DNA of 64,000 bases from an uncultured Chitinophaga sp. (GTDB taxonomy: Bacteria; Bacteroidota; Bacteroidia; Chitinophagales; LD1). Below are positions 2,662 to 56,240 of this stretch, piece by piece; the stretch's first letter is position 1, and each line of letters opens with the position of its first letter. The stretch is from assembly GCA_964631835.1 (NCBI GenBank), contig CAZWAD010000001.1, forward strand, positions 114,216-178,215, read 5' to 3'. A program made the translations under genes and the position numbers. The notes below the pieces were generated by a model, which did not search any database, was not told where the DNA came from, and worked only from the letters and a program-made list of their open reading frames with translations.

Positions 2662-5496
2662 TTAGTTCGCTTCAGCTTTCGTTTTCTTTCCGAAGTTGTT
2701 GAAGTCGAAAGTCCATGCCAAATAATACATCGCTCCGATTTTAGGCGAACCAACCGCTTCGATATGCCAGTTATTATAAATATTTGAACCACCGAGGCGA
2801 ACAGTGGAATAAGCCTTCTCAATTTCATAATAAAGCTGTAGATCAAGGACATGGAAACTCGGAACTGTTCCATCAGCAAACGGGCTTTGCCATTCATAGT
2901 CTGTAACCCACTTAAAGTTAGCGCTAAAACCAAGTCCTTTCCATACCCGGTTACCGTTTACGCCTATATTTATTTTATGGCGGGGAGTATTGAAGCCGGA
3001 AAGAATAGTTGTTCCTGTGTTTTTTAAATTGCTGTCATCCAAATCGGAGTAGGTGTAATTTACATAAGGCGTAATTCCTCTTCCCACATAATATGCAACA
3101 CTAACCGCTACGCCCCAGGAAGGAGTTGTTCCTTCACCATTTACCCAGGTTTGGTAAGGTGTATAATAGCCGGAAAGTATATTGGTAACTCCTGATTCCT
3201 CACCGGCAATGCCAACATCGGTAGTATCGTTATACGGATGTGCTACGCGGGTAAAACCGATAAATCGTTTGTAAATGCTGTAGTATGCAGTCAGGTCAAC
3301 AAATACTTTGTTGTTGAAATCACCCCTATAACCGATTTCAAATGAAGTTACCCGTTCCGGTTGAATCGGCTTCAATGTAGTTGGAACCAAAACCGCTGCT
3401 GCCGCGTCTGCTTTGCTTCCTCCTTGTTCATTCAAAGCTAAAGTGTCTTCGGCATCGCGTATAGACTCAAGCGTATAAAGATTTTCCCATCCATTGAGGT
3501 TGCCTACCAGTTTGATTCTTCCAATGTCAAGATACAGATACTGGTCTTGCAAAGTAGGAGTTCTGAATGCTGCCGTAGCTGATGCGCGGAAAGTATGGTC
3601 GCTTTTTTTCGCTTTGTAAGTATAAACGAGCGAGCCTCTTGGCGAAACCTGCGCTTTAAAGTTCGAGTTTTTATCTACGCGGATTGAACCAATAATTTTA
3701 AAGTTGTCATTAAACAATCTCTTGGTCGCCTGCAAATACGCACCCACTTCATGGACTCGAATCTTTACATTAGCAGTATCTTCAAAGATTGTTCCGCGGG
3801 AGTTAGGCATATAGATACGGTACGATACACCGGTGATTATTTCCAGCCACTTTACAAAGTCCCAGTTATACTGCCCTTCAACATGCCACAACATGGAGCG
3901 GTCGTAGAACTTAGTTCCGTTAAGTGAATTCGCTTCTCCAATAAGATAGCTGAATGTATCTTTAAACTGCTGTGAGCCGCCTTTATACCAAAACTGCTCG
4001 GCATGAGCCCGGCCGGCTTTGCGGGCGGAATCAATCTGCCATTCACGAATGCAATCAGCACAGAAATCGGTAAGCGAGTCAATAGTTGCAAAATACTTGG
4101 AGCTGAACTCAGAAACATAATCAGGCACAGCAGCACGCGAAACATAAGCACCGGTCAACCCGATGTTGTAAGATTTTCCCGCATCTTCAATAGCTCCATA
4201 AGCGCGTATAAAAAAGTTCTTACCCTTCAATTCAATTTTTGGCTGGTGGAAATTAAATTCCTTGATTTGGTAACGGGCAGTAGCCTGGTAAACAGCAGTT
4301 CCGAATCCGTATTTGTAAGCTGCCTGTAATTCCAAATCGGGAGTAAAGCGGTAATGCAGGCCAACCGAAAACTTCAAGCTCTTGGCATTGTAATCAGCCA
4401 ATTCTTTTTCCATATAGCCGGGAGCTTTCACTTTCAAAAAGCCATTGGATGCCGCAGTATCAAAAATACTTGCCTGGGGATTGAAGTCGAGCCAGTTGTT
4501 TAGTTTTTCGTACCGGTCGTGGTCTTCCTGAGTAACCGGGCAAGTGGGGCAGTAAGGCTCCAATCTTTTTTTGCGGATTGAAGCATTGAGGTTTACATCC
4601 GCTTCAATGGCGCCATACAGGTTCAGCGAATCGTCATCCGCTACCCAATCGCTCATTTGCATGTACTCACCGGTAAACTTTATGGCAAACTTTTCTTTCT
4701 TTCCGAATGCCTGTGCGTAACGCAGCTGCGCATTCAGGTAAGGACCGGGAACCGTAGTTCCTCCGCCTTTTAACTGAACAGCAAGCCCCTGAAAATCGTA
4801 CGGGCTTTTGCTTCGCATGGTTATAACTCCCTGCATGGCGTTAGCTCCGTAAAGCGATGATGATGCTCCCGAGATAATCTCCACACTTTCCAAATCGAGG
4901 TCGTTTGCGCCTACCATGTTTCCAATCGGGAAGTTCAACCCCGGTGCTTCGTTATCTACCCCGTCAACAAACTGCTTGGTGCGCAGCGAACGGGTATCGC
5001 TGAAGCCGCGAAGGTTAATTACTTTAAAGCCCGAAGATGTGGTTACAATATCTACACCTTTAAAGTTTCCGATGCTCTGGTAGAAGTCACCGGAGGCGGC
5101 TGATTTGATTTCGCGCGAGGTCATTTTCTCGATTTGCACAGGAGCGGTCTTAATAGATTCGGCAACACGCGATGAAGTTACCACCACCTCGCCACCGGGA
5201 ATTTCGGCAGTTTCAAGAGTTACAGAAAAGTTGGTGTTGTTTCCAATGGTAATGTCGCGGGTTACATAGCCTACATACGAAACCGTAAGCCCCTTGGCAT
5301 CGGCTGGAACATCGAGTTTGAAATTGCCATCCGCATCGGTGGCGGTTCCTATCTTGGTTCCTTTTACAATAACCGTAGCGCCTACCATCGGCTCTTTGGT
5401 TTGTGAGTCAGTTATTTTTCCGGTAATGGTTTTAGTTTGGGCAAAGAGGAGGAATGAAGTACATACAAATGAAACAAACAGTAATAATTTCTTCAT
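2662..5496 (-). CDS. TonB-dependent receptor with carboxypeptidase-regulatory-like N-terminal domain
   Basis: Signal peptide, then ITGKITD..GATV.VKGT..GT.TD.DGNF (CarboxypepD_reg pattern). The 944-aa protein has a plug/barrel-sized body. Confidence 0.9.
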   Translation of the reverse strand: MKKLLLFVSFVCTSFLLFAQTKTITGKITDSQTKEPMVGATVIVKGTKIGTATDADGNFKLDVPADAKGLTVSYVGYVTRDITIGNNTNFSVTLETAEIPGGEVVVTSSRVAESIKTAPVQIEKMTSREIKSAASGDFYQSIGNFKGVDIVTTSSGFKVINLRGFSDTRSLRTKQFVDGVDNEAPGLNFPIGNMVGANDLDLESVEIISGASSSLYGANAMQGVITMRSKSPYDFQGLAVQLKGGGTTVPGPYLNAQLRYAQAFGKKEKFAIKFTGEYMQMSDWVADDDSLNLYGAIEADVNLNASIRKKRLEPYCPTCPVTQEDHDRYEKLNNWLDFNPQASIFDTAASNGFLKVKAPGYMEKELADYNAKSLKFSVGLHYRFTPDLELQAAYKYGFGTAVYQATARYQIKEFNFHQPKIELKGKNFFIRAYGAIEDAGKSYNIGLTGAYVSRAAVPDYVSEFSSKYFATIDSLTDFCADCIREWQIDSARKAGRAHAEQFWYKGGSQQFKDTFSYLIGEANSLNGTKFYDRSMLWHVEGQYNWDFVKWLEIITGVSYRIYMPNSRGTIFEDTANVKIRVHEVGAYLQATKRLFNDNFKIIGSIRVDKNSNFKAQVSPRGSLVYTYKAKKSDHTFRASATAAFRTPTLQDQYLYLDIGRIKLVGNLNGWENLYTLESIRDAEDTLALNEQGGSKADAAAAVLVPTTLKPIQPERVTSFEIGYRGDFNNKVFVDLTAYYSIYKRFIGFTRVAHPYNDTTDVGIAGEESGVTNILSGYYTPYQTWVNGEGTTPSWGVAVSVAYYVGRGITPYVNYTYSDLDDSNLKNTGTTILSGFNTPRHKINIGVNGNRVWKGLGFSANFKWVTDYEWQSPFADGTVPSFHVLDLQLYYEIEKAYSTVRLGGSNIYNNWHIEAVGSPKIGAMYYLAWTFDFNNFGKKTKAEAN

Positions 5497-16960: not shown

Positions 16961-17009
16961 AATGCCCATGATATTCATTTTCTGCAGGTGATTTTGAATC
17001 ATGGGCATT
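16961..17009. repeat. hairpin repeat, AATGCYCATGAT family (copy 1)
   Basis: AATGCCCATGAT (16961..16972) is the perfect reverse complement of ATCATGGGCATT (16998..17009). Confidence 0.85.
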
Positions 17010-46961: not shown

Positions 46962-47024
46962 ATGTTATTCGTTCAAAACACCTGTTGTTGTCTTTCCCGG
47001 TGGGGTATAGAAGATGTTTTGTAA
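46962..47024 (+). CDS. putative cysteine leader peptide MLFVQNTCCCLSRWGIEDVL
   Basis: A 20-codon ORF with TGT TGT TGT at 46983..46991. It lies 27 nt upstream of an intrinsic terminator and directly upstream of cysE-cysK. Confidence 0.55.
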   Translation: MLFVQNTCCCLSRWGIEDVL

Positions 47025-47050
47025 TAACTGACAAGCGATAAAAACATTTT

Positions 47051-47086
47051 AAAACCCTTCTCTTGACGAAGGGTTTTTTATTTTTT
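47051..47086 (+). terminator. intrinsic terminator (attenuator) upstream of cysE
   Basis: AAAACCCTTC-TCTTGAC-GAAGGGTTTT followed by TTATTTTTT. Confidence 0.8.
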
Positions 47087-47932: not shown

Positions 47933-48850
47933 ATGAAAGCAAACAACATCCTTGAAACCATCGGCAACACTCCGCACCTGCGAATCAATAAACTCTTTGA
48001 CAGCAGCCACGAAGTCTGGATTAAACTGGAGCGTGCCAATCCCGGGGGAAGCATTAAGGACCGCATCGCTCTTTCCATGATTGAAGATGCCGAGCAAAAG
48101 GGTTTGCTCAAGCCCGGCAGTGTAATTATTGAACCTACTTCGGGCAACACCGGTATTGGCTTGGCAATGGTGGCGTGTGTAAAAGGCTACAAACTGATTC
48201 TCGTTATGCCAGAATCAATGAGTATAGAAAGAAGAAGACTGATGAAAGCTTATGGCGCCACTTTCGAGCTTACCCCCCGCGAAAAAGGGATGAAGGGCGC
48301 TATAGCCAAAGCCCAGGAACTTGCCGATGCAACCCCCGACTCGTGGATACCTCAGCAGTTTGACAATGCTGCTAACGTGGCAGTGCATATAAAACATACC
48401 GCTCAGGAAATTCTTACCGATTTTCCTGAAGGCATTGATTACCTCATTACGGGAGTTGGAACAGGTGGTCATATTACCGGTGTGGGCAAAGCGCTGAAAG
48501 AAAAGTTTCCTTCTTTAAAAGTATATGCTGTAGAGCCGGCTCTTTCGCCCGTAATAAGCGGTGGTCAGCCTGCTCCGCATCCCATTCAGGGAATTGGTGC
48601 GGGGTTTATTCCCGCCAACCTGGATACGAAGGTGCTTGACGGGGTTATTCAGGTGTCGAAAGAAGAGGCTTTTGATTTCGCCATCCGTGCAGCCAGCCAG
48701 GAAGCCCTCTTTGGCGGAATTTCATCAGGAGCAACCCTCGCTGCAATTGCAAAAAAGATTACCGAAATACCTGCCGGCAAGCGTATACTCGGCTTTAATT
48801 ACGATACCGGTGAACGCTACCTGAGCATAGAGGGGCTTTTCGCCCTTTAA
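47933..48850 (+). CDS. cysK: cysteine synthase A (O-acetylserine sulfhydrylase)
   Basis: [12 protein letters not shown] lysine, [13 protein letters not shown]. Confidence 0.93.
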
Positions 48851-48872
48851 TCCCCGCCTTTTACAGCAAACC

Positions 48873-48902
48873 ACCATATTTATATGTACATATAAATATG
48901 GT
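48873..48902. repeat. 30-bp perfect palindrome after cysK
   Basis: In ACCATATTTATATGTACATATAAATATGGT the left 15 nt are the exact reverse complement of the right 15 nt. Confidence 0.9.
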
Positions 48903-48974
48903 AAACCCCATTTGCAAAAATGTTTCCCCGAATTGCTTGACAAATGACGCGGGGCGTTTATATTAGCGTCATGA

Positions 48975-49019
48975 AATGCTCATGATTCAAAATCATGAAA
49001 AACGAAAATCATGAGCATT
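48975..49019. repeat. hairpin repeat, AATGCYCATGAT family (copy 2)
   Basis: AATGCTCATGATT (48975..48987) is the perfect reverse complement of AATCATGAGCATT (49007..49019). A third AATCATGA sits in the loop. Confidence 0.85.
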
Positions 49020-49050
49020 CCATCTGACAATTAAAATCAAATTATAACAG

Positions 49051-49116
49051 ATGAAAATTATCATTTCAACCGGTTGGTGGCATGCTGAAAAAACAGCGGG
49101 CTGCGCAATGCGTTGA
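49051..49116 (+). CDS. putative trp leader peptide MKIIISTGWWHAEKTAGCAMR
   Basis: A 21-codon ORF with tandem TGG TGG at 49075..49080. It is followed by a terminator and then trpE. Confidence 0.65.
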   Translation: MKIIISTGWWHAEKTAGCAMR

Positions 49117-49138
49117 AATGATTGATTATATTTTTTCG

Positions 49139-49173
49139 AAAGCCCGTTGTAGTAACAATGGGCTTTTTCTTTT
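49139..49173 (+). terminator. intrinsic terminator (attenuator) upstream of trpE
   Basis: Stem AAAGCCCGTTG / CAATGGGCTTT with a 6-nt loop, then TTCTTTT. Confidence 0.8.
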
Positions 49174-49186
49174 ACGCTGAAACGAA

Positions 49187-50575
49187 ATGAGATATACCAC
49201 ACATACTTTTCAAATGCTTGCCGATACACACACGCCCGTGGGTATTTACCTGAAGCTGCGCGATGTGTTTCATCAAACGCTGCTGCTGGAAAGCTCCGAT
49301 TATCATGCGGCAGAAAACAGTTTTTCGTTTATCTGCTGCCATGCCGTGGCATCTGTAAAAGTGCTGGAGGGTGCCGTGGAAATTGACGGATACAAAACCG
49401 GCAAGCAGACTGTTTCGTTTGAGCAGAAGCCGCTGTTTGAATCGTTTCAGCAGTTCAGCGATTCGTTTACCGAAACAAACGGCAAGGCCACTATTGCCAA
49501 CGGGCTGTTTGGTTATGTAAGCAGCGATGCGGTGCAGCACTTCGATAATTTTTCGTTCAGGAATGAAGACCGCGAAATTCCTTCGGTGTGGTTTACGTTT
49601 TACCGTTTTGTCATCGCGTTCAACCATTTTAAAGACGAGCTGGTTATTTACGAAAACGTGCCGGAGGGCGAAACTGGCGAAACGGAAAAAATAATTACGC
49701 TCATCCGCAATAAGAACATGGCGGTGTATCCGTTTGAAACCGCGGGCGAAGAAAAAACCAATGTGACCGACCCGGAATTTATTTCGATGATTGAACGCGC
49801 CATAGGGCATTGTTACCGTGGCGATGTTTTTCAGCTGGTGCTGTCGCGCAGGTTTATGCAAAAATTTACGGGCGATGATATGAATGTGTATCGCACGCTG
49901 CGCTCGATAAATCCTTCGCCCTACCTGTTTTATTTCGATTACGGCAACTTCCGGATTTTTGGTTCTTCGCCCGAAGCGCAGCTGGTGGTGAAGGGCAACA
50001 AAGCGAAAATCAATCCCATTGCAGGAACTTTTAAGCGCACCGGTGATGATGAGCAGGATAAAATGCTGGCGGAAAAACTGGCGAAGGATGAAAAAGAAAA
50101 TGCCGAGCATGTGATGCTGGTGGATTTGGCGCGCAACGATTTATCGAAGCATTGCAGCGCGGTGGAGGTGAAGCATTACAAGCAGATTCATTTTTACTCG
50201 CACGTGATTCATTTGGTGAGCGAAGTGATGGGAACGCTCGATGGCAAACACAATGCTTTGCAGTTACTGGCAGATTCGTTTCCTGCGGGCACACTTTCGG
50301 GTGCGCCCAAGCACGAAGCGATTGAGCTGATTCGCAAATACGAAAATATGCTGCGCGGATTTTATGGCGGGTGTATCGGCTTTATCGGTTTCAATGGCGA
50401 TATCAATACTGCTATTACCATCCGCTCGTTTTTGAGCAAGAACAACACGCTGCATTACCAGGCGGGCGCGGGAGTGGTGGCGGCATCGAATCCGCAAAGC
50501 GAGCTGGAGGAAGTTCACAACAAGCTGCGCGCCTTACGCACAGCCATTGAGCAGGCAAAACAAATGAGTGTATGA
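49187..50575 (+). CDS. trpE: anthranilate synthase component I
   Basis: LLESS, SPE..L, GAPK and a chorismate-binding C-half. Confidence 0.95.
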   Translation: MRYTTHTFQMLADTHTPVGIYLKLRDVFHQTLLLESSDYHAAENSFSFICCHAVASVKVLEGAVEIDGYKTGKQTVSFEQKPLFESFQQFSDSFTETNGKATIANGLFGYVSSDAVQHFDNFSFRNEDREIPSVWFTFYRFVIAFNHFKDELVIYENVPEGETGETEKIITLIRNKNMAVYPFETAGEEKTNVTDPEFISMIERAIGHCYRGDVFQLVLSRRFMQKFTGDDMNVYRTLRSINPSPYLFYFDYGNFRIFGSSPEAQLVVKGNKAKINPIAGTFKRTGDDEQDKMLAEKLAKDEKENAEHVMLVDLARNDLSKHCSAVEVKHYKQIHFYSHVIHLVSEVMGTLDGKHNALQLLADSFPAGTLSGAPKHEAIELIRKYENMLRGFYGGCIGFIGFNGDINTAITIRSFLSKNNTLHYQAGAGVVAASNPQSELEEVHNKLRALRTAIEQAKQMSV

Positions 50576-51144
50576 TGAAGAAGATATTAGTGATAGACAA
50601 TTACGATTCGTTTACTTACAACTTAGTGTATCTGCTGAGGCAGTTTGAAGATGTAACGGTAGATGTGGTGCGGAATGATTTTGTGGAAATGGAAGCGGTG
50701 AAGAATTACGACAAGCTTTTGTTTTCACCGGGACCTGGAATTCCCGAAGAAGCGGGGCTGATGTGCGAGGTGATAAAAGAATATGCTGGAAAGAAATCTA
50801 TGCTCGGTGTTTGTCTTGGTCATCAGGCAATTGGAGAAGTGTTTGGCTCGAAGCTTAAAAATTTGACAAAAGTTTTTCACGGAATAGCAACAGATATTTT
50901 CGTGAAGGATTCAAATGGAGTTTTTAAAGATGTTCCGAAAACTTTTAAAGCGGGCAGGTATCACTCCTGGGTGATTGATGAAAATAATTTGTCGGATGAT
51001 TTGGAAGTAACGGCTACGGATGAGAACAACCTCATTATGGCAGTGGCGCATAAAAAATATGATATACAGGGCGTTCAGTTTCACCCAGAATCAATTTTGA
51101 CCGAGCATTCAGTAACGATGATGAGCAACTGGATAAATAAATAG
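50572..51144 (+). CDS. trpG: anthranilate synthase component II (glutamine amidotransferase)
   Basis: ATGA overlap with trpE. GVCLGHQ and VQFHPES triad motifs. Confidence 0.95.
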   Translation: MMKKILVIDNYDSFTYNLVYLLRQFEDVTVDVVRNDFVEMEAVKNYDKLLFSPGPGIPEEAGLMCEVIKEYAGKKSMLGVCLGHQAIGEVFGSKLKNLTKVFHGIATDIFVKDSNGVFKDVPKTFKAGRYHSWVIDENNLSDDLEVTATDENNLIMAVAHKKYDIQGVQFHPESILTEHSVTMMSNWINK

Positions 51145-51145
51145 G

Positions 51146-52129
51146 ATGAAGGCGATACTCAACAACTTAATAGAACTGCAAACGCTCTCACGCAAAGAGG
51201 CGTACGAGTTGATGAAAAACATCGGCACGGGTGCTTTCAACGAAGCACACATTGCCGCGCTGCTCACCGTGCTGATGATGCGCCCGCTTACGCTTGATGA
51301 GCTACATGGTTTTCGTGAAGCACTTTTGGAATTGTGTGTTCCGTTTAATGCAGATGAAGAAACTATAGACTTATGCGGCACGGGGGGCGATGGAAAAAAC
51401 ACGTTTAATATTTCTACGCTTTCTTCGATTGTAGTTGCTGCCTGCGGATATAAAGTAACCAAGCACGGTAACTACGGAGTATCTAGCGCCAGCGGCTCAT
51501 CGAATGTGATGGAGTATTATAGTTACAAATTCACCAACGATGAAAGTGTTTTGAAGAAGCAGTTGGATGCCTGCAACATTTGTTTCTTGCATGCACCTTT
51601 ATTTCACCTTGCGCTAAAGCATGTTGCCAACGTTCGCAAGCAGATGGGCATCAAAACTTTCTTCAATATGCTGGGGCCTTTGGTAAATCCTGCACAACCT
51701 GCTTACCGCCTAACAGGTGTTTTCAATTTAGAGTTGGCGCGCTTGTATCATTATCTTTTACAACAAGACCCCGGCAGCTATAAAGTGCTGCACGATTTGA
51801 ATGGCTACGATGAAATTTCTCTCACCGGTTTAGTGAAGGTTTATTCTAAAGAAGGCGAACAAGTTTTCAGTCCGGAAGATTTAGGCTTCAAACAAAAACA
51901 AGCCAGCGAACTTTTTGGAGGAGATACAGTAAAAGAAGCCGCAGAGATTTTCATGAGTGTATTGGAAAACAAAAGCACTGCCACGCAGCAGGAAGTGGTA
52001 ATTGCTAATGCAGCAACTGCTATTCAAACAATAGAGCCAGAACTTTCATTTACTGATTGTGCTGCAAAAGCGAAAGAAGCAATCATATCAGGCAACGCAT
52101 TAAAGACATTTAAATCGCTTGTGGCATGA
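51146..52129 (+). CDS. trpD: anthranilate phosphoribosyltransferase
   Basis: DLCGTGGDG..TFNIST and KHGN motifs. Confidence 0.95.
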   Translation: MKAILNNLIELQTLSRKEAYELMKNIGTGAFNEAHIAALLTVLMMRPLTLDELHGFREALLELCVPFNADEETIDLCGTGGDGKNTFNISTLSSIVVAACGYKVTKHGNYGVSSASGSSNVMEYYSYKFTNDESVLKKQLDACNICFLHAPLFHLALKHVANVRKQMGIKTFFNMLGPLVNPAQPAYRLTGVFNLELARLYHYLLQQDPGSYKVLHDLNGYDEISLTGLVKVYSKEGEQVFSPEDLGFKQKQASELFGGDTVKEAAEIFMSVLENKSTATQQEVVIANAATAIQTIEPELSFTDCAAKAKEAIISGNALKTFKSLVA

Positions 52130-52917
52130 ATTACTTAGATGAGATAATCGCTCATAAACGGAAAGAGCTAGAAGTAAGAAAGCTACTTCGTACGGTTAGT
52201 CAGTTGGAGAATGATGTTTTATTTAAACGGGCAACTACTTCGCTGAAAGATATCCTCAGTCAAAAAAATAATAGTGGCATCATCGCAGAATTTAAACGCG
52301 CATCTCCGAGTAAGGGGTTTATAAACAAGTATGCAGAAGTAAAAAAAACAACTACCGGTTATATTAAGGCAGGTGCATCCGCTCTGTCTGTTCTTACGGA
52401 TGAAAAATATTTTGGAGGCACTGCAAAAGATTTAACCGAAGCGCGACAAGTAAATGCCTGCCCTATCCTCCGAAAAGACTTTACCGTTGACGAATACCAA
52501 ATCATTGAAGCAAAATCTATCGGTGCGGATGTTATTCTTTTGATAGCCGCGGTGTTGAGCAAAAAAGAAATCAAATCACTTACTGATGTTGCTGTGTCTT
52601 TGGGCTTAGAAGTGTTATTGGAAATTCACGAAGCAGAGGAATTGGACAAAGCCGATGTATCACAACACCTTATCGGCATCAACAACCGCAACCTGAAAAC
52701 CTTTGAAGTAAATCTGGAGCACAGTATTCAATTGGCGGAGCAACTTCCCAAAGGCGTTGTAAAAATTGCCGAGAGTGGAATAAGTCAGCCCGAAAATATT
52801 TTGCTGCTGAAGCAACATGGTTTCAATGGTTTTTTGATTGGAGGGAATTTTATGAAAGAAGCGCAACCCGAAATTGCTTGCAAAAAATTTATTGATAGTC
52901 TTTCTGTCTTGGTATGA
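52126..52917 (+). CDS. trpC: indole-3-glycerol phosphate synthase
   Basis: IAEFKRASPSKG, LRKDF and GINNRNL motifs. Overlaps trpD by 4 bp. Confidence 0.95.
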   Translation: MNYLDEIIAHKRKELEVRKLLRTVSQLENDVLFKRATTSLKDILSQKNNSGIIAEFKRASPSKGFINKYAEVKKTTTGYIKAGASALSVLTDEKYFGGTAKDLTEARQVNACPILRKDFTVDEYQIIEAKSIGADVILLIAAVLSKKEIKSLTDVAVSLGLEVLLEIHEAEELDKADVSQHLIGINNRNLKTFEVNLEHSIQLAEQLPKGVVKIAESGISQPENILLLKQHGFNGFLIGGNFMKEAQPEIACKKFIDSLSVLV

Positions 52918-53537
52918 AAACAAAAATCTGCGGCTTAAGGGAAAAACAGAATATTGCGGATTTAGCGAAGCTAAATCCGCAGTGGATGGGCTTCATCTTT
53001 GCTCCAGCTTCTCCGCGCTATTTCAATTCGGCAAAAGAACCCGCAGATTTAAGATCAATTCCCTCTTCCATTAACAAAGTCGGAGTGTTCGTGAACGAAA
53101 CATCAGAGAAGGTGAAAGAAACAATTCAGCAACACAACTTAAACGCCATTCAACTCCACGGCAACGAAACTCCCGAATACTGTGCATCGCTTCAATCACC
53201 CGGCATTGAAATCATCAAAGCATTCAGCGTGGATGATGACTTTGATTTCAGCATCACCGAATCCTATTCTCCTTTCGTAGATTATTTCCTATTCGATACC
53301 AAAGGCAAACAAGCAGGCGGCAACGGAATCGCCTTCAACTGGAATATCCTAAACGGCAAACGTTTTGCGAAACCGTTTTTATTGAGCGGAGGCATTTCAC
53401 CCGAACATGCAGAGGCAATAAAGCAATTCACTCATCCCGATTGCATCGGCATCGACATCAATAGCCGCTTCGAAATTTCTCCCGGCCTGAAAGATGTTGC
53501 GGCTATTCGTTTATTCTTACAACAAATTCAGTCATGA
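52914..53537 (+). CDS. trpF: phosphoribosylanthranilate isomerase
   Basis: KICG, QLHG.E and LSGG motifs. Overlaps trpC by 4 bp. Confidence 0.93.
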   Translation: MKTKICGLREKQNIADLAKLNPQWMGFIFAPASPRYFNSAKEPADLRSIPSSINKVGVFVNETSEKVKETIQQHNLNAIQLHGNETPEYCASLQSPGIEIIKAFSVDDDFDFSITESYSPFVDYFLFDTKGKQAGGNGIAFNWNILNGKRFAKPFLLSGGISPEHAEAIKQFTHPDCIGIDINSRFEISPGLKDVAAIRLFLQQIQS

Positions 53538-53548
53538 GTTACACCAAA

Positions 53549-53671
53549 GCATTCATTGCCGCGCAGACCCCTGCCCCTAAAGGGGTAAGGCAACGCAGAA
53601 AAAACATAGCTTGTATTTTGCGTAGCGGTTCTCCCTTTAGGGAGTTAGTGGGTTGGGGGTCTATTCTAAAC
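53549..53671. repeat. palindromic repeat element inserted between trpF and trpB, flanked by 26-bp direct repeats (53523..53548 and 53672..53697)
   Basis: The direct repeats are CAAATTCAGTCATGAGTTACACCAAA and CAAATTCAACCATGAGTTACACCAAA. The insert has AGACCCC...GGGGTCT ends and internal CCCCTAAAGGGG and CTCCCTTTAGGGAG hairpins. Confidence 0.85.
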
Positions 53672-53682
53672 CAAATTCAACC

Positions 53683-54858
53683 ATGAGTTACACCAAAACC
53701 AAAAACGGCTTTTACGGAGAATTTGGCGGAGCCTTCATCCCCGAAATGCTCCACGCCAATGTCGAAGAGCTGCAGCAGAATTACGAGCGCATTATCGAAC
53801 AACCTGATTTCAAAAAAGAAATGGAGCAACTTCTGCGCGATTATGTGGGCCGTCCTACTCCGCTCTTTTTTGCTGAACGCCTTTCGCAGCATTACGGCAC
53901 CAACATTTATTTAAAGCGCGAAGATCTTTGCCACACGGGAGCGCATAAAATCAATAACACCATCGGGCAGATTCTGCTGGCGCAGCGCCTCGGCAAAAAA
54001 CGAATCATTGCCGAAACCGGTGCAGGGCAACACGGAGTGGCTACCGCCACCGTCTGCGCCCTCAAAGGTTTGGAGTGCATTGTTTACATGGGGCAGAAAG
54101 ACACCGAGCGCCAGGCGCCCAATGTGGCGCGTATGAAAATGCTGGGTGCCAAAGTGGTGCCCGTTACCAGCGGTAACATGACCCTCAAAGATGCCACCAA
54201 CGAAGCCATCCGCGACTGGATCAACCATCCCGATGAAACACACTACATCATCGGCTCGGTGGTCGGTCCTCATCCTTATCCCGAAATGGTGGCGCGCTTT
54301 CAATCTGTCATCAGTGCCGAAATGCAAACACAGCTGCACGAAAAAACCAACCGCAATCACCCCGACTATGTGCTGGCATGTGTGGGCGGAGGCAGCAATG
54401 CAGCAGGCGCTTTCTATCATTTTCTCGATGACGAAAAAGTAAAACTCATTGCCGTAGAAGCCGCGGGCAAAGGTCTTGAGAGTGGTCACTCAGCCGCTAC
54501 TACTTACCTCGGCAAAAAAGGAATTATTCACGGCAGCATGACCCTGCTCATGCAAACCGCTGACGGACAAATCGAAGAACCCTATTCGCTTTCTGCGGGG
54601 CTCGATTACCCCGGCATTGGTCCGCTGCATGCGCATTTGTTCCAAAGCGGGCGCGCGCAGTTTAAGTATGTAACCGATGACAAAGCTTTGCAAGCCGCCT
54701 TCTTCCTCGCCAAAAACGAAGGCATTATCTGCGCCCTCGAAACCGCTCATGCACTGGCCGCTTTAGAGCAAGTCAATTTCCGCAAAACCAATGTGGTGGT
54801 CATCTGCCTCTCGGGCCGTGGCGACAAAGATTTAGAAGCGTACATGAAGCATTTGTAG
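53683..54858 (+). CDS. trpB: tryptophan synthase beta chain
   Basis: Start moved to [16 protein letters not shown] at 53683. [12 protein letters not shown] lysine and GGGSNA motifs. Confidence 0.96.
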
Positions 54859-54920
54859 AAAAAGAATTGGTGCCTGTCCCGAACTTGTTTCGGGAGCGCG
54901 TCCCGCACAAAGCAGCGGGT

Positions 54921-55060
54921 CGGGCTTTACGCTACAATCTTTTTTGCTGCTGCATTTTGTCCCCCTCTGCATAGCCTGTGTTTAGCTGAGGGGGTGCCCG
55001 TTTCGGGCGGGGGAGGTTTTTTCATCCGCAGCAAAAAAGGATTTCCGCTTCAATCCCTCG
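54921..55060. repeat. composite palindromic element downstream of trpB
   Basis: The imperfect arms share a perfect core, TTTTTTGCTGC (54940..54950) against GCAGCAAAAAA (55028..55038). Inner hairpins are CCCCCTC...GAGGGGG and GCCCG-TTT-CGGGC. Confidence 0.7.
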
Positions 55061-55107
55061 CGCAAACAGCCGCCTTTCACTCACAAGTTTGCCCTTGCGA
55101 GGTCGGC

Positions 55108-55136
55108 TCTGCGACCGAAGCAAACTTCCACTTTGT
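55108..55136 (+). repeat. solo copy of the left-end sequence of the GIY-YIG cassette
   Basis: TCTGCGACCGAAGCAAACTTCCACTTTGT matches 17657..17685 at 28 of 29 positions. Confidence 0.85.
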
Positions 55137-55195
55137 ATTTTTGTATTCGCTCCATCGGAGCAATCTGTTTGTAGAAAATACATAATTGCCCCTCC

Positions 55196-55764
55196 GCGCA
55201 CCGTAGGTGCCGCCTTATTTCCCTCTTCAAAACGCCTTCGTTATTTTCACGCGTAAATTATTCACCATGCCAAACACATATACTCAACTCTACATTCAAA
55301 TTGTATTTGCTGTGCAAGGCAGACAAAACCTAATTCCCAAACAACACAAAGAAGAACTGCATAGATACATTACCGGTATAGTTCAGAAACGAAATCATAA
55401 AATGATTGCCATAAATTCAATGCCTGACCACGCGCATATTTTTGTCGGATTAAAACCCACGCAATCCATTTCAGATTTAGTGCGCGACATCAAAACCAAT
55501 TCTTCTTCATTTATTACAGAGAAAAAATTTGTACGCGGTAAATTTAATTGGCAGGAAGGTTTCGGAGCATTCTCTTATTCGCATTCGCAAATTGATGCCG
55601 TTGTCAAATACATACTAAATCAGGAAGAACATCATTGCAACAAAACTTTTCGTGAGGAATACATCGGCTTCCTCAAAAAATTTGAGGTTGAATACGATGG
55701 GAAATACTTGTTTGACTGGATTGGGTGATTCTGTCAAATGCAACAGGCGGCACCTACGGTGCGC
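55196..55764 (+). mobile_element. IS200/RAYT-like unit: Y1 transposase gene bracketed by a perfect 20-bp inverted repeat
   Basis: GCGCACCGTAGGTGCCGCCT (55196..55215) is the exact reverse complement of AGGCGGCACCTACGGTGCGC (55745..55764). Confidence 0.85.
55267..55728 (+). CDS. IS200-like / REP-associated tyrosine (Y1, HUH) transposase
   Basis: Start moved to MPNTYTQLYIQIVF at 55267. HUH motif PDHAHIFVG and Tyr motif YILNQEEHH. Confidence 0.85.
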   Translation: MPNTYTQLYIQIVFAVQGRQNLIPKQHKEELHRYITGIVQKRNHKMIAINSMPDHAHIFVGLKPTQSISDLVRDIKTNSSSFITEKKFVRGKFNWQEGFGAFSYSHSQIDAVVKYILNQEEHHCNKTFREEYIGFLKKFEVEYDGKYLFDWIG

Positions 55765-55923
55765 CCCCAAAACGCTTCTTTATCTATACTGCAAACAGAA
55801 AACTCCTAACGGAGTAAGATAAAAACTGGTTGAGCATGGCCAGGCTAATCGCGTAGTGCGCTTTTTTTTGTTTAGCGTAACGAAATAAATTTTAGCCAAT
55901 TTCTTCCCGGCCTTGATCTTTTG

Positions 55924-55949
55924 GTTCTTTTGCATCAAGGCAAAAGAAC
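55924..55949. repeat. hairpin repeat, CTTTTGGTTCYTTT family (copy 1)
   Basis: GTTCTTTTGC-ATCAAG-GCAAAAGAAC, a perfect 10-bp stem. Confidence 0.85.
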
Positions 55950-56039
55950 AAACGCTATTCAACAACCACCCTTCCCAACAAAAGCACTGCCTTTCGAGCA
56001 GAGCCTGTCCGTTTCACGCGGAGCGATTGAAATGCTCAT

Positions 56040-56082
56040 GGTTCCATTATGTTTAAAAATGAGCATGAGCATTCAATGTGTC
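56040..56082. repeat. hairpin repeat, AATGCYCATGAT family (copy 3)
   Basis: AATGCTCATG (56040..56049) is the reverse complement of CATGAGCATT (56073..56082). Confidence 0.8.
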
Positions 56083-56126
56083 CTTTTAAAATCTAACGAG
56101 TTCACATTAAACGTACGATTCTTTTG

Positions 56127-56153
56127 GTTCCTTTTCTTCTAAAGAAAAGGAAC
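56127..56153. repeat. hairpin repeat, CTTTTGGTTCYTTT family (copy 2)
   Basis: GTTCCTTTTCTT-CTA-AAGAAAAGGAAC, a perfect 12-bp stem. It shares the 5' flank GATYCTTTTGGTTC with copy 1. Confidence 0.85.
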
Positions 56154-56240
56154 AAGAAAAACACTTTCAATCAAAAACATCAATTCGGCTAAAGCCAACG
56201 GCAAAACAAAAATCCCTCTCCCGCGAGGTAAAGCCCATTT

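What the first reader, a model, noticed from the sequence alone, without database searches (positions are those of the whole stretch)
49040..49186. trp operon leader peptide with tandem Trp codons, terminator and a 9-bp antiterminator pairing
The ORF at 49051..49116 encodes MKIIISTGWWHAEKTAGCAMR, with TGG TGG at 49075..49080. The terminator at 49139..49173 has stem AAAGCCCGTTG/CAATGGGCTTT followed by TTCTTTT. The trpE ATG is at 49187.

CAGCGGGCT (49094..49102) can pair with AGCCCGTTG (49141..49149) over 9 bp including one G-U. That pairing sequesters the left arm of the terminator.

A ribosome stalled at the Trp codons would leave 49094..49102 free. One reaching the stop at 49114 would cover it. 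This is a compact two-state version of the enterobacterial trpL mechanism, here in an apparently Bacteroidota genome. The leader RNA also starts with a 13-bp perfect hairpin of a dispersed repeat family (48975..49019).
Basis: partly seen in the sequence, partly recalled or inferred. Interest (0 to 1): 0.6.

Follow-up and report, generated by a model that had tools for sequence, protein, structure and literature searches.

The report
Tryptophan operon leader-peptide attenuator
Just upstream of the tryptophan-synthesis genes lies a 21-codon mini-gene with two tryptophan codons and a switchable terminator; this is the textbook way bacteria sense tryptophan shortage, seen here as a divergent copy of a leader already predicted for Bacteroidota.

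Summary
This includes the ORF 49051..49116 (MKIIISTGWWHAEKTAGCAMR), the Trp codons 49075..49080, the terminator 49138..49167 with its U-tract, the 9-10 bp pairing of 49093..49102 with 49141..49150, and the trpE ATG at 49187.

It is not chance. 145 of 149 related Chitinophagales/Bacteroidota trpE loci carry a WW(W) leader ORF plus terminator. A covariance model built only from distant relatives finds 49040..49175 as its best hit in the window.

The interpretation needs one correction. This is not a "compact two-state" device. A strong hairpin (49056..49127, -30 kcal/mol) pairs the Trp-codon region with the antiterminator strand, which gives the classic three-structure logic (1:2, 2:3, 3:4) of E. 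coli trpL. The same ribosome-masking procedure reproduces the E. coli switch.

The class is already known as a prediction: the Bacteroid-trp leader of Weinberg 2010, Rfam RF01692. The window's copy is too divergent to be detected by RF01692 or RF00513.

My verdict is an ordinary, well-supported, new member of a known kind. No expression data exist, and the transcription start in this genome is unresolved.

The parts
48911..48923 (+). Only TTTG in the intergenic region, followed 5 nt later by an ATG (TTTGCAAAAATG). This is a candidate Bacteroidota-type -7 promoter element with the same geometry as the relatives' leader promoters.
   Evidence: In 101 of 118 unique relatives a TTTG ends 6-8 nt before the leader ATG. 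The window has no TTTG next to ATG 49051 and only this one in 48851..49186. The promoter role is inferred, not shown.
48937..48964 (+). Match to the sigma-70 consensus, TTGACA-16-TATATT. This is an alternative candidate promoter.
   Evidence: 11 of 12 consensus positions match. Such matches are no more frequent in the region than in shuffles, and Bacteroidota usually use a different consensus (established knowledge). This is weak evidence.
48971..49023 (+). Hairpin of a dispersed repeat (ATGCTCATG...CATGAGCAT), 28 nt upstream of the leader ATG.
   Evidence: 17-nt arms are 94% complementary. Copies lie at 56032..56072 and 16961..17009. There is no evidence that it takes part in attenuation.
49051..49116 (+). 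Leader peptide ORF (trpL-like), MKIIISTGWWHAEKTAGCAMR.
   Evidence: Homologous WW(W) ORFs occur in 145 of 149 related trpE loci.
49075..49080 (+). Tandem Trp codons TGG TGG, the proposed sensing site.
   Evidence: TGGTGG is invariant or nearly so across 58 aligned relatives.
49056..49127 (+). Anti-antiterminator hairpin (1:2). 49056..49070 pairs with 49113..49127. 49073..49087 (including the second Trp codon and the His and Ala codons) pairs with 49094..49109.
   Evidence: This is the minimum-energy structure, -30.3 kcal/mol on its own. Equivalent pairing of the Trp-codon region with region 2 is seen in the nearest relatives L001 and L081.
49093..49102 (+). Region 2 core, ACAGCGGGCT, the 5' strand of the antiterminator. 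It begins 15 nt after the first base of the last Trp codon.
   Evidence: It pairs with 49141..49150 when 28 nt around a Trp codon in the A site are masked (-21.1 kcal/mol). The duplex is -18.3 kcal/mol, with 0 of 100 shuffles as good.
49141..49150 (+). Region 3, AGCCCGTTGT. It is shared between the antiterminator (with region 2) and the terminator (with region 4).
49138..49173 (+). Intrinsic terminator (attenuator): 13-bp stem 49138..49150 / 49155..49167, loop AGTA, then a T-rich tail to 49173.
   Evidence: The homologous stem in relatives is 98.7% paired, with changes on both sides at 8 of 9 pairs.
49187..54858 (+). Regulated operon: trpE (49187..50575), trpG (50572..51144), trpD (51146..52129), trpC (52126..52917), trpF (52914..53537), trpB (53653..54858).
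   Evidence: Pfam matches are all far above their cut-offs.

Best explanation
This is a ribosome-mediated transcription attenuator of the trpEGDCFB operon. It is built like E. coli trpL, with four RNA segments.

- No ribosome on the leader: segment 1 (N-terminal codons plus the Trp/His/Ala codons, 49056..49087) pairs with segment 2 (49094..49127). Segment 3 (49141..49150) is then free to pair with segment 4 (49155..49167). The terminator forms and transcription stops near 49170.
- Charged tRNA-Trp plentiful: the ribosome translates through segment 2 to the stop codon at 49114. This keeps segment 2 unavailable while segments 3 and 4 are made, so termination again occurs.
- tRNA-Trp scarce: the ribosome stalls with a Trp codon (49075 or 49078) in its A site. 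Its footprint, reaching to about 49087-49090, holds segment 1. Segment 2, starting at 49093, is just clear of the ribosome and pairs with segment 3 as soon as that is transcribed. The terminator cannot form, and RNA polymerase reads into trpE.

What is shown here: the sequence elements, their thermodynamic plausibility, their conservation and geometry across relatives, and the equivalence to E. coli under the same procedure. What is inferred: actual translation of the ORF, termination at the hairpin, the response to tryptophan, and where the transcript starts.
For: 1. Anatomy and energetics. The free RNA folds into 1:2 (-30.3) plus 3:4 (-17.6), with total z = -5.5. With 28 nt masked around a Trp codon in the A site, and the RNA cut before segment 4, the minimum-energy fold is the 10-bp 2:3 helix (-21.1). 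With the mask at the stop codon, no 2:3 helix forms.

2. Positive control. The identical procedure on the E. coli trp leader gives the textbook 1:2, 2:3 and 3:4 structures. The E. coli sequence was verified as 100% identical to annotated trpL in 5390 or more genomes. Its 2:3 helix starts +17 nt from the second Trp codon, against +15 in the window.

3. Conservation.
- 145 of 149 related trpE loci have a WW(W) short ORF, giving 92 unique ORF sequences. Chance expectation is about 1%.
- The terminator covaries strongly.
- In about 54 of 60 unique leaders, the best complement to the terminator's 5' arm begins 15-17 nt after the last Trp codon. This holds even though that strand's sequence differs between clades: ACAGCGGGCU, GAGCGGGCUA, GUUGGGGUA, GUUAGGGUA, UCGGGGUGCUG, GGGGUCUGU.
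- There is a compensatory G-C to A-U change between subfamilies (pair 95-160).

4. Window versus L001. At position 49148 the terminator stem has T-A in the window and C-G in L001, a compensatory change. The same base pairs with a G of segment 2 in both (G-U and G-C).

5. Homology. A covariance model built from 58 relatives, excluding the window and L001, has its best hit in the window at 49040..49175 (32.9 bits, E about 3.5e-4).

6. The element belongs to trpE, not to the upstream gene. No relative has cysK upstream, and the neighbours differ in size and orientation.
Against: - There are no transcript or expression data of any kind.
- The transcription start is not identified. The -7 box that sits 6-8 nt before the leader ATG in most relatives is missing here, and a repeat hairpin lies 28 nt upstream of the ATG.
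- With segment 4 present, the terminator state is slightly more stable than the antiterminator state even under the stall mask (-23.4 to -24.8 versus -21.1 to -22.5). Read-through therefore depends on kinetic order of folding, as it does in E. coli.
- Column-based covariation for the 2:3 helix is only modest (69% of cells paired), because the register shifts between subfamilies.
- The 1:2 hairpin begins 5 nt after the AUG and could hinder initiation once formed.
- Ribosome-mediated attenuation has not, to my knowledge or in the papers I could search, been demonstrated experimentally in any Bacteroidota.
Confidence: 0.85

Rival explanations
1. This is the two-state attenuator proposed by the first reader. 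Only the antiterminator (2:3) and terminator (3:4) matter, and the ribosome alone decides by covering or exposing 49094..49102. No anti-antiterminator takes part.
For: The 2:3 and 3:4 helices are real, and under a stop-codon mask the 2:3 helix is lost. In many relatives the truncated free RNA already shows partial 2:3 pairing, so a 1:2 element is not always dominant in simple folding.
Against: In the window, the free RNA's minimum-energy fold sequesters 49094..49109 in a -30 kcal/mol hairpin with the Trp-codon segment. The nearest relatives L001 and L081 do the same. In the wider family a conserved CUCC just after the Trp codons pairs with the GGGG of segment 2 (helix 1, 77% paired).
Confidence: 0.06
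2. The element is a decaying or rewired relic. An insertion carrying the repeat hairpin (roughly 48924..49050) separated the leader ORF from its ancestral promoter. The ORF may therefore be poorly translated, and the terminator may act mostly constitutively, with read-through set by something other than Trp codon translation.
For: The window lacks the TTTG-N7-ATG arrangement found in 101 of 118 relatives. The only TTTG, at 48911, is followed by an ATG with family-like spacing but a 6-codon ORF without Trp. The repeat hairpin lies between that site and the real leader ORF.
Against: The ORF, the Trp codons, and all of the 1:2, 2:3 and 3:4 complementarities are intact. The 2:3 duplex is the strongest of all 60 leaders compared. 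The sequence upstream of ATG 49051 is A-rich and predicted unpaired. The insertion itself is only inferred.
Confidence: 0.05
3. The switch is set by a trans-acting factor such as a TRAP-like protein, uncharged tRNA as in a T-box, or a small RNA, rather than by a translating ribosome. The ORF would be incidental.
For: None positive. Such systems do regulate trp operons in Firmicutes (established knowledge; one search lists TRAP papers).
Against: There are no (G/U)AG repeats. No T-box or other Rfam family hits the region at E <= 10 apart from sub-threshold leader families. The in-frame ATG, WW(W) and stop are conserved in 145 of 149 loci, while the N-terminal codons vary freely in sequence and in multiples of three.
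Confidence: 0.03
4. This is a chance ORF next to the terminator of the upstream cysK gene.
For: The hairpin lies downstream of cysK (which ends at 48850) on the same strand.
Against: The hairpin is 290 nt from cysK and 20 nt from trpE. Relatives with quite different upstream genes, some divergently oriented, keep the ORF and terminator. The chance rate of a WW ORF is about 1%.
Confidence: 0.01

Closest known systems
Bacteroid-trp leader (Rfam RF01692; Weinberg et al. 2010, PMC2864571, Additional file 1)
   Same: It lies upstream of trpE in Bacteroidota. It has a short ORF with two or more UGG codons, usually followed by a His codon. It has a loosely conserved hairpin that pairs the region around the Trp codons with sequence near the stop codon, and it ends at a terminator. 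Seed sequences encode peptides such as MKTFANKYWWWHS..., the same motif as the window's relatives.
   Different: The window's sequence gives no RF01692 hit even at E <= 10. Its relatives reach only 28-30 bits against a cut-off of 49. It has two Trp codons rather than three, 11 codons rather than 8 after them, and a much stronger 1:2 hairpin. The published description gives no antiterminator and no mechanism beyond 'presumably attenuation'.
E. coli trpL / enterobacterial trp operon leader (Rfam RF00513)
   Same: It has two tandem Trp codons and the 1:2, 2:3 and 3:4 alternative helices. The antiterminator strand begins 15-17 nt after the last Trp codon. The terminator has a GCCCG core and a U-tract, and the distance from Trp codons to terminator is similar, about 55-60 nt.
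   Different: The RF00513 score is 20.5 bits against a cut-off of 41. The stop codon is 36 nt after the last Trp codon rather than 12, so segment 2 lies inside the ORF and is translated rather than merely shielded from the stop codon. The phylum differs, there is no Shine-Dalgarno sequence, and common ancestry is not evident.
Chitinophagaceae/Sediminibacterium trp leaders (the family modelled here as R1)
   Same: The position is the same (upstream of orthologous trpE). They share the WW(W)H motif, an antiterminator strand at +15..+17 inside the ORF, and a G/C-core terminator. The R1 model hits the window at 32.9 bits.
   Different: In those leaders, segment 1 is a CUCC tetranucleotide downstream of the Trp codons, and a -7 promoter box sits 7 nt before the ATG, so the mRNA is probably leaderless. 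In the window, segment 1 includes the Trp codons themselves and no adjacent -7 box is present.

Membership tests
Ribosome-mediated amino-acid attenuators (trpL class, functional definition) | Short ORF enriched in codons for the end-product amino acid, immediately upstream of the biosynthetic operon | tested here: met
   The 21-codon ORF has TGG TGG and lies 71 nt upstream of trpE. It is conserved in 145 of 149 relatives.
Ribosome-mediated amino-acid attenuators (trpL class, functional definition) | Intrinsic terminator between the ORF and the first structural gene | tested here: met
   A 13-bp stem with a U-tract lies at 49138..49173. The homologous stem covaries.
Ribosome-mediated amino-acid attenuators (trpL class, functional definition) | Antiterminator that uses the terminator's 5' arm and is exposed by a ribosome stalled at the regulatory codons | tested here: met
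   A 10-bp 2:3 helix starts +15 nt from the last Trp codon, and it forms under the stall mask. This is computational evidence only.
Ribosome-mediated amino-acid attenuators (trpL class, functional definition) | Anti-antiterminator (1:2) overlapping the regulatory codons | tested here: met
   49073..49087 pairs with 49094..49109 inside the hairpin 49056..49127.
Ribosome-mediated amino-acid attenuators (trpL class, functional definition) | Read-through increases when the cognate charged tRNA is scarce | not testable with these tools
   This needs Term-seq or reporter assays.
Rfam RF00513 Trp_leader | Covariance-model score at or above the gathering threshold (41 bits) | tested here: not met
   20.5 bits at 49069..49171.
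Rfam RF01692 Bacteroid-trp | Covariance-model score at or above the gathering threshold (49 bits) | tested here: not met
   There is no hit at E <= 10 in the window. Relatives L007 and L003 score 30.4 and 27.9 bits.
Rfam RF01692 Bacteroid-trp | Upstream of trpE/trpB in Bacteroidota, with two or more conserved UGG codons in a short ORF and a hairpin spanning them (descriptive definition, PMC2864571 Additional file 1) | tested here: met
   The closest TrpE homologues are from Chitinophagales.
Chitinophagales trp leader family (model R1 built here) | Significant match to a model built without the window | tested here: met
   The best hit in the window is 49040..49175, at 32.9 bits and E about 3.5e-4 (rough calibration).
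TRAP-dependent or T-box trp regulation | (G/U)AG triplet repeats, or a T-box specifier and conserved T-box sequence | tested here: not met
   There is no Rfam T-box hit at E <= 10. No triplet repeat is visible in the sequence.

The most novel reading that the evidence does not exclude
In Chitinophagales, and probably more widely in Bacteroidota, the trp leader peptide may be translated from a leaderless or nearly leaderless mRNA: a -7 box TAnnTTTG ends 7 nt before the ATG. Ribosome loading at the very 5' end would then be the step that synchronises transcription and translation. The antiterminator strand lies inside the ORF. In this genome that arrangement may have been broken by insertion of a roughly 130-nt repeat-bearing element between the old promoter/ATG (48911..48923) and the leader ORF. 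That would make the window a natural 'leadered' variant of a leaderless attenuator. A further open point is the near-universal His codon after the Trp run, which could mean more than RNA pairing.
Probability: 0.2. Interest if true: 0.45.

Novelty: new member of a known kind. Interest (0 to 1): 0.25.

Why it matters
It adds a well-documented but divergent example of Trp attenuation in a phylum where this mechanism has only been predicted and never tested. Current Rfam models miss it entirely, so automated annotation would leave the trp operon's regulation blank.

The comparative set assembled here gives a concrete model for the Bacteroidota leader: the antiterminator strand begins 15-17 nt after the last Trp codon and lies inside the ORF, and most relatives have a -7 promoter box 7 nt before the ATG. 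The original 2010 description did not provide such a model.

Beyond that, the element is the expected regulation for this operon and changes no general understanding.

Tried and rejected
- **Rfam, whole region and a narrow 271-nt slice, E <= 10.** Only sub-threshold Trp_leader (20.5 bits) and unrelated noise came up, with no Bacteroid-trp hit. Gathering-threshold scans of 20 relatives found no leader family either.
- **Column-based covariation for the 2:3 helix on the model-guided alignment.** The result was modest (69% paired, 14 double-change cells), because subfamilies use registers shifted by one base. I replaced it with per-sequence duplex searches against shuffles.
- **RNAalifold on the family.** It recovers only the terminator and a trivial 3-bp helix. 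Alternative structures cannot be captured in one consensus.
- **cysK terminator idea.** No relative has cysK upstream.
- **TRAP or T-box.** No repeats and no hits.
- **Peptide-level selection on the C-terminal residues.** Rejected as the main force. The RGL and GVL endings are the same GGGG-containing nucleotides read one base apart.
- **Literature searches for experimental work on Bacteroidota trp attenuation.** They found only the 2010 prediction. The review by Merino, Jensen and Yanofsky was not held.
- **Closer relatives.** The genome and metagenome scans gave only four loci above 60% TrpE identity: L001, L002 (truncated, no upstream region), L081 and L082. Covariation within the window's own clade therefore rests on three sequences.
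- **Promoter.** I could not assign one.

Full report
**What is in the sequence.**
- The ORF 49051..49116 encodes MKIIISTGWWHAEKTAGCAMR, with TGG TGG at 49075..49080.
- A G/C-cored hairpin lies at 49138..49167 (13 bp, loop AGTA), followed by TTCTTTT.
- The trpE ATG is at 49187.

Pfam confirms an uninterrupted trpE-trpG-trpD-trpC-trpF-trpB series from 49187 to 54858. The consensus scan ranks the hairpin among the best terminator-like sites in 10 kb. The 9-bp complementarity between CAGCGGGCT (49094..49102) and AGCCCGTTG (49141..49149) is real, and A49093-U49150 extends it to 10 bp.

**Is it more than chance?**
- The 147-nt stretch folds far better than shuffles (-49.5 against -30.1 kcal/mol, z = -5.5, 0 of 200).
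- The best duplex between the leader and the terminator's 5' arm is -18.3 kcal/mol against a shuffle mean of -9.9 (0 of 100).
- A short ORF with tandem Trp codons arises in 0.6% of shuffles of this region and in 1.2% of equal-sized windows elsewhere in the 64 kb.

The minimum-energy fold has two parts: the terminator, and a long hairpin at 49056..49127 (-30.3 kcal/mol alone).
- In the long hairpin the N-terminal codons (49056..49070) pair with 49113..49127.
- GUUGGUGGC.AUGCUG (49073..49087: the Gly codon's last two bases, both Trp codons, and the His and Ala codons) pairs with CAGCG.GCUGC.CAAU (49094..49109).
- The proposed antiterminator strand is therefore sequestered in naked RNA by the segment a Trp-stalled ribosome would occupy.

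I masked 28 nt around an A-site Trp codon and cut the RNA before the terminator's 3' arm. The minimum-energy fold then became the 10-bp 2:3 helix (-21.1 to -22.5 kcal/mol). With the mask at the stop codon, no 2:3 helix forms.

With segment 4 present, terminator and antiterminator states differ by only about 2-3 kcal/mol. The outcome should therefore depend on which helix forms first.

This is the four-segment logic of E. coli trpL, not a two-state simplification. As a control I ran the same script on the E. coli trp leader, whose sequence I verified as 100% identical to annotated trpL. The script returns the textbook 1:2, 2:3 and 3:4 structures. The E. coli 2:3 helix starts +17 nt from the second Trp codon, against +15 in the window.

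**Relatives.** TrpE homologues were retrieved with flanks from species-representative genomes and from metagenomes. The nearest are Chitinophagales MAGs (89% identity but truncated; 67-69%).
- Of 149 loci with at least 230 nt upstream, 145 carry a short ORF with WW or WWW just upstream of trpE.
- These give 92 unique ORF sequences and 75 unique peptides, typically MxxxxNKYWWWHTNSVRGL.
- Each ORF checked is followed by a terminator whose stem is 98.7% paired, with changes on both sides at 8 of 9 positions.
- The upstream neighbour is never cysK and varies in size and orientation, so the element belongs to trpE.

**Geometry is conserved although sequence is not.**
- In about 54 of 60 unique leaders, the best complement to the terminator's 5' arm starts 15-17 nt after the first base of the last Trp codon (10th-90th percentile 15-17). 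That is just beyond the 3' edge of a ribosome holding that codon in its A site.
- The complement ends a few bases before or at the stop codon.
- The strand itself differs between clades (ACAGCGGGCU, GAGCGGGCUA, GUUGGGGUA, GUUAGGGUA, UCGGGGUGCUG, GGGGUCUGU) and tracks changes in the terminator arm. One example is GUUGGGGU/ACCCCGAC against GUUAGGGU/ACCCUAAC.
- Between the window and its nearest full relative L001, position 49148 changes T-A to C-G in the terminator. It stays paired to the same G of segment 2.
- The window's own clade (L001, L081/L082) also pairs the Trp-codon segment with segment 2 in free RNA.
- In the larger family, segment 1 is instead a conserved CUCC within 12-14 nt after the Trp codons, and it pairs with the GGGG of segment 2.

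The peptide endings RGL and GVL are the same GGGG-containing nucleotides read one base apart. This indicates selection on the RNA rather than on the peptide.

**Homology test.** A covariance model built from 58 relatives, excluding the window and L001, was run over the whole window. Its top hit is 49040..49175 (32.9 bits, E about 3.5e-4 with rough calibration). L001 scores 39.5 bits.

**Relation to known families.** Rfam holds two relevant families.
- RF00513 (enterobacterial Trp_leader) matches 49069..49171 at 20.5 bits, below its cut-off of 41.
- RF01692 (Bacteroid-trp, 'Bacteroidete tryptophan peptide leader RNA') does not match the window at E <= 10. It matches the relatives L007 and L003 only at 30.4 and 27.9 bits, below its cut-off of 49.

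Weinberg et al. 2010 describe that motif as controlling trpB and trpE in Bacteroidetes. [quoted passage not shown] They describe only 'a loosely conserved hairpin' (PMC2864571, Additional file 1). Their seed sequences encode the same ...NKYWWWHS... motif as the relatives found here.

So the kind is known as a prediction. The window is a divergent member linked to it through the Chitinophagaceae leaders. I found no experimental study of it.

**Differences from E. coli trpL.** The stop codon lies 36 nt after the last Trp codon (27 nt in most relatives) rather than 12 nt. Segment 2 is therefore inside the ORF and is translated when Trp is plentiful. A ribosome parked at the stop codon would cover only about four of its ten bases. 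There is no Shine-Dalgarno sequence, and the ATG sits in an A-rich, unpaired stretch.

**Unresolved: the promoter.**
- In 101 of 118 unique relatives a TTTG ends 6-8 nt before the leader ATG, and 63 of these are a full TAnnTTTG, the Bacteroidota -7 element (established knowledge). This implies a leaderless or nearly leaderless leader-peptide mRNA.
- The window has no such box beside ATG 49051.
- Its only TTTG in the intergenic region is at 48911 (TTTGCAAAAATG), with family-like spacing to an ATG that opens a 6-codon ORF without Trp.
- Between that site and the real leader lies a repeat hairpin (48971..49023) with sister copies at 56032..56072 and 16961..17009.
- A sigma-70-like TTGACA-16-TATATT also occurs at 48937..48964.

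An insertion that displaced the ancestral promoter is a reasonable guess, but I could not test it.

**Verdict.** The interpretation as a Trp attenuator is well supported, with about 0.85 confidence in the mechanism as stated. The 'compact two-state' claim is not supported. The element is a new, divergent member of a known (predicted) kind, and its interest is modest.

Noticed in passing
window 55207..55728 (+), with 48976..49018, 56032..56072, 16961..17009: An IS200-like Y1 transposase (Pfam PF01797, 90 bits) sits directly after trpB. The hairpin repeat ATGCTCATG-N-CATGAGCAT occurs upstream of the trp leader and about 300 nt downstream of this gene, with a variant at 16961..17009. This looks like a REP-like repeat with its REP-associated transposase.
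   Followed up: partly
window 54859..56200: No trpA follows trpB. A crude motif search for TrpA signatures (PFSDP.ADG, G[VIL]PFSD and GFG[IV]) gave no TrpA-like context in any of the six frames of the window. The operon here appears to be trpEGDCFB only.
   Followed up: partly
window 46963..47086 (+): A second leader-like element lies upstream of the cysE-like and cysK genes. The ORF MLFVQNTCCCLSRWGIEDVL has three consecutive Cys codons and is followed by the terminator 47051..47077 with a T-run. The trp-leader model R1 scores it at 24.6 bits, mostly from the terminator.
   Followed up: partly
window 48873..48902: A perfect 30-nt palindrome, ACCATATTTATATGT|ACATATAAATATGGT, lies 23 nt after the cysK stop and is unique in the window. 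It has no U-tract on either strand, so it may be a protein-binding site rather than a terminator.
   Followed up: partly
L007, L017, L025 and most other relatives, about 20 nt upstream of the leader ATG: A Bacteroidota -7 promoter box (TAnnTTTG) ends 7 nt before the leader-peptide ATG in 80 of 118 unique relatives, and 6-8 nt before it in 101. The leader peptide is therefore probably translated from a leaderless or near-leaderless mRNA.
   Followed up: partly
L003 about 2670..2977 and L009 1840..2126 (Bacteroidales MAGs): Two WWW leader ORFs lie in tandem upstream of trpE. The model R1 hits both copies in L009.
   Followed up: no
leader ORFs of 92 unique relatives; window 49081..49083: The codon after the Trp run is His in 81 of 92 leaders (CAT 76, CAC 5), and its first base is C in 88 of 92. 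Weinberg's alignment also flags it. The cause, whether RNA pairing (UGGC with GCCA) or a property of the codon or residue, is unexplained.
   Followed up: partly
L042, L120, L128 (L032 is truncated): A few relatives match the leader RNA model but lack an in-frame WW ORF. In L042, for example, the TGGTGGTGG is out of frame with the ATG. This could be assembly error, an alternative start or decay.
   Followed up: no
window 49069..49041 (-): A strong sigma-70-like match on the minus strand, inside the leader ORF (TTGAAA-17-TATAAT with an upstream TG, 11 of 12 positions). In this A/T-rich stretch it is probably chance.
   Followed up: no
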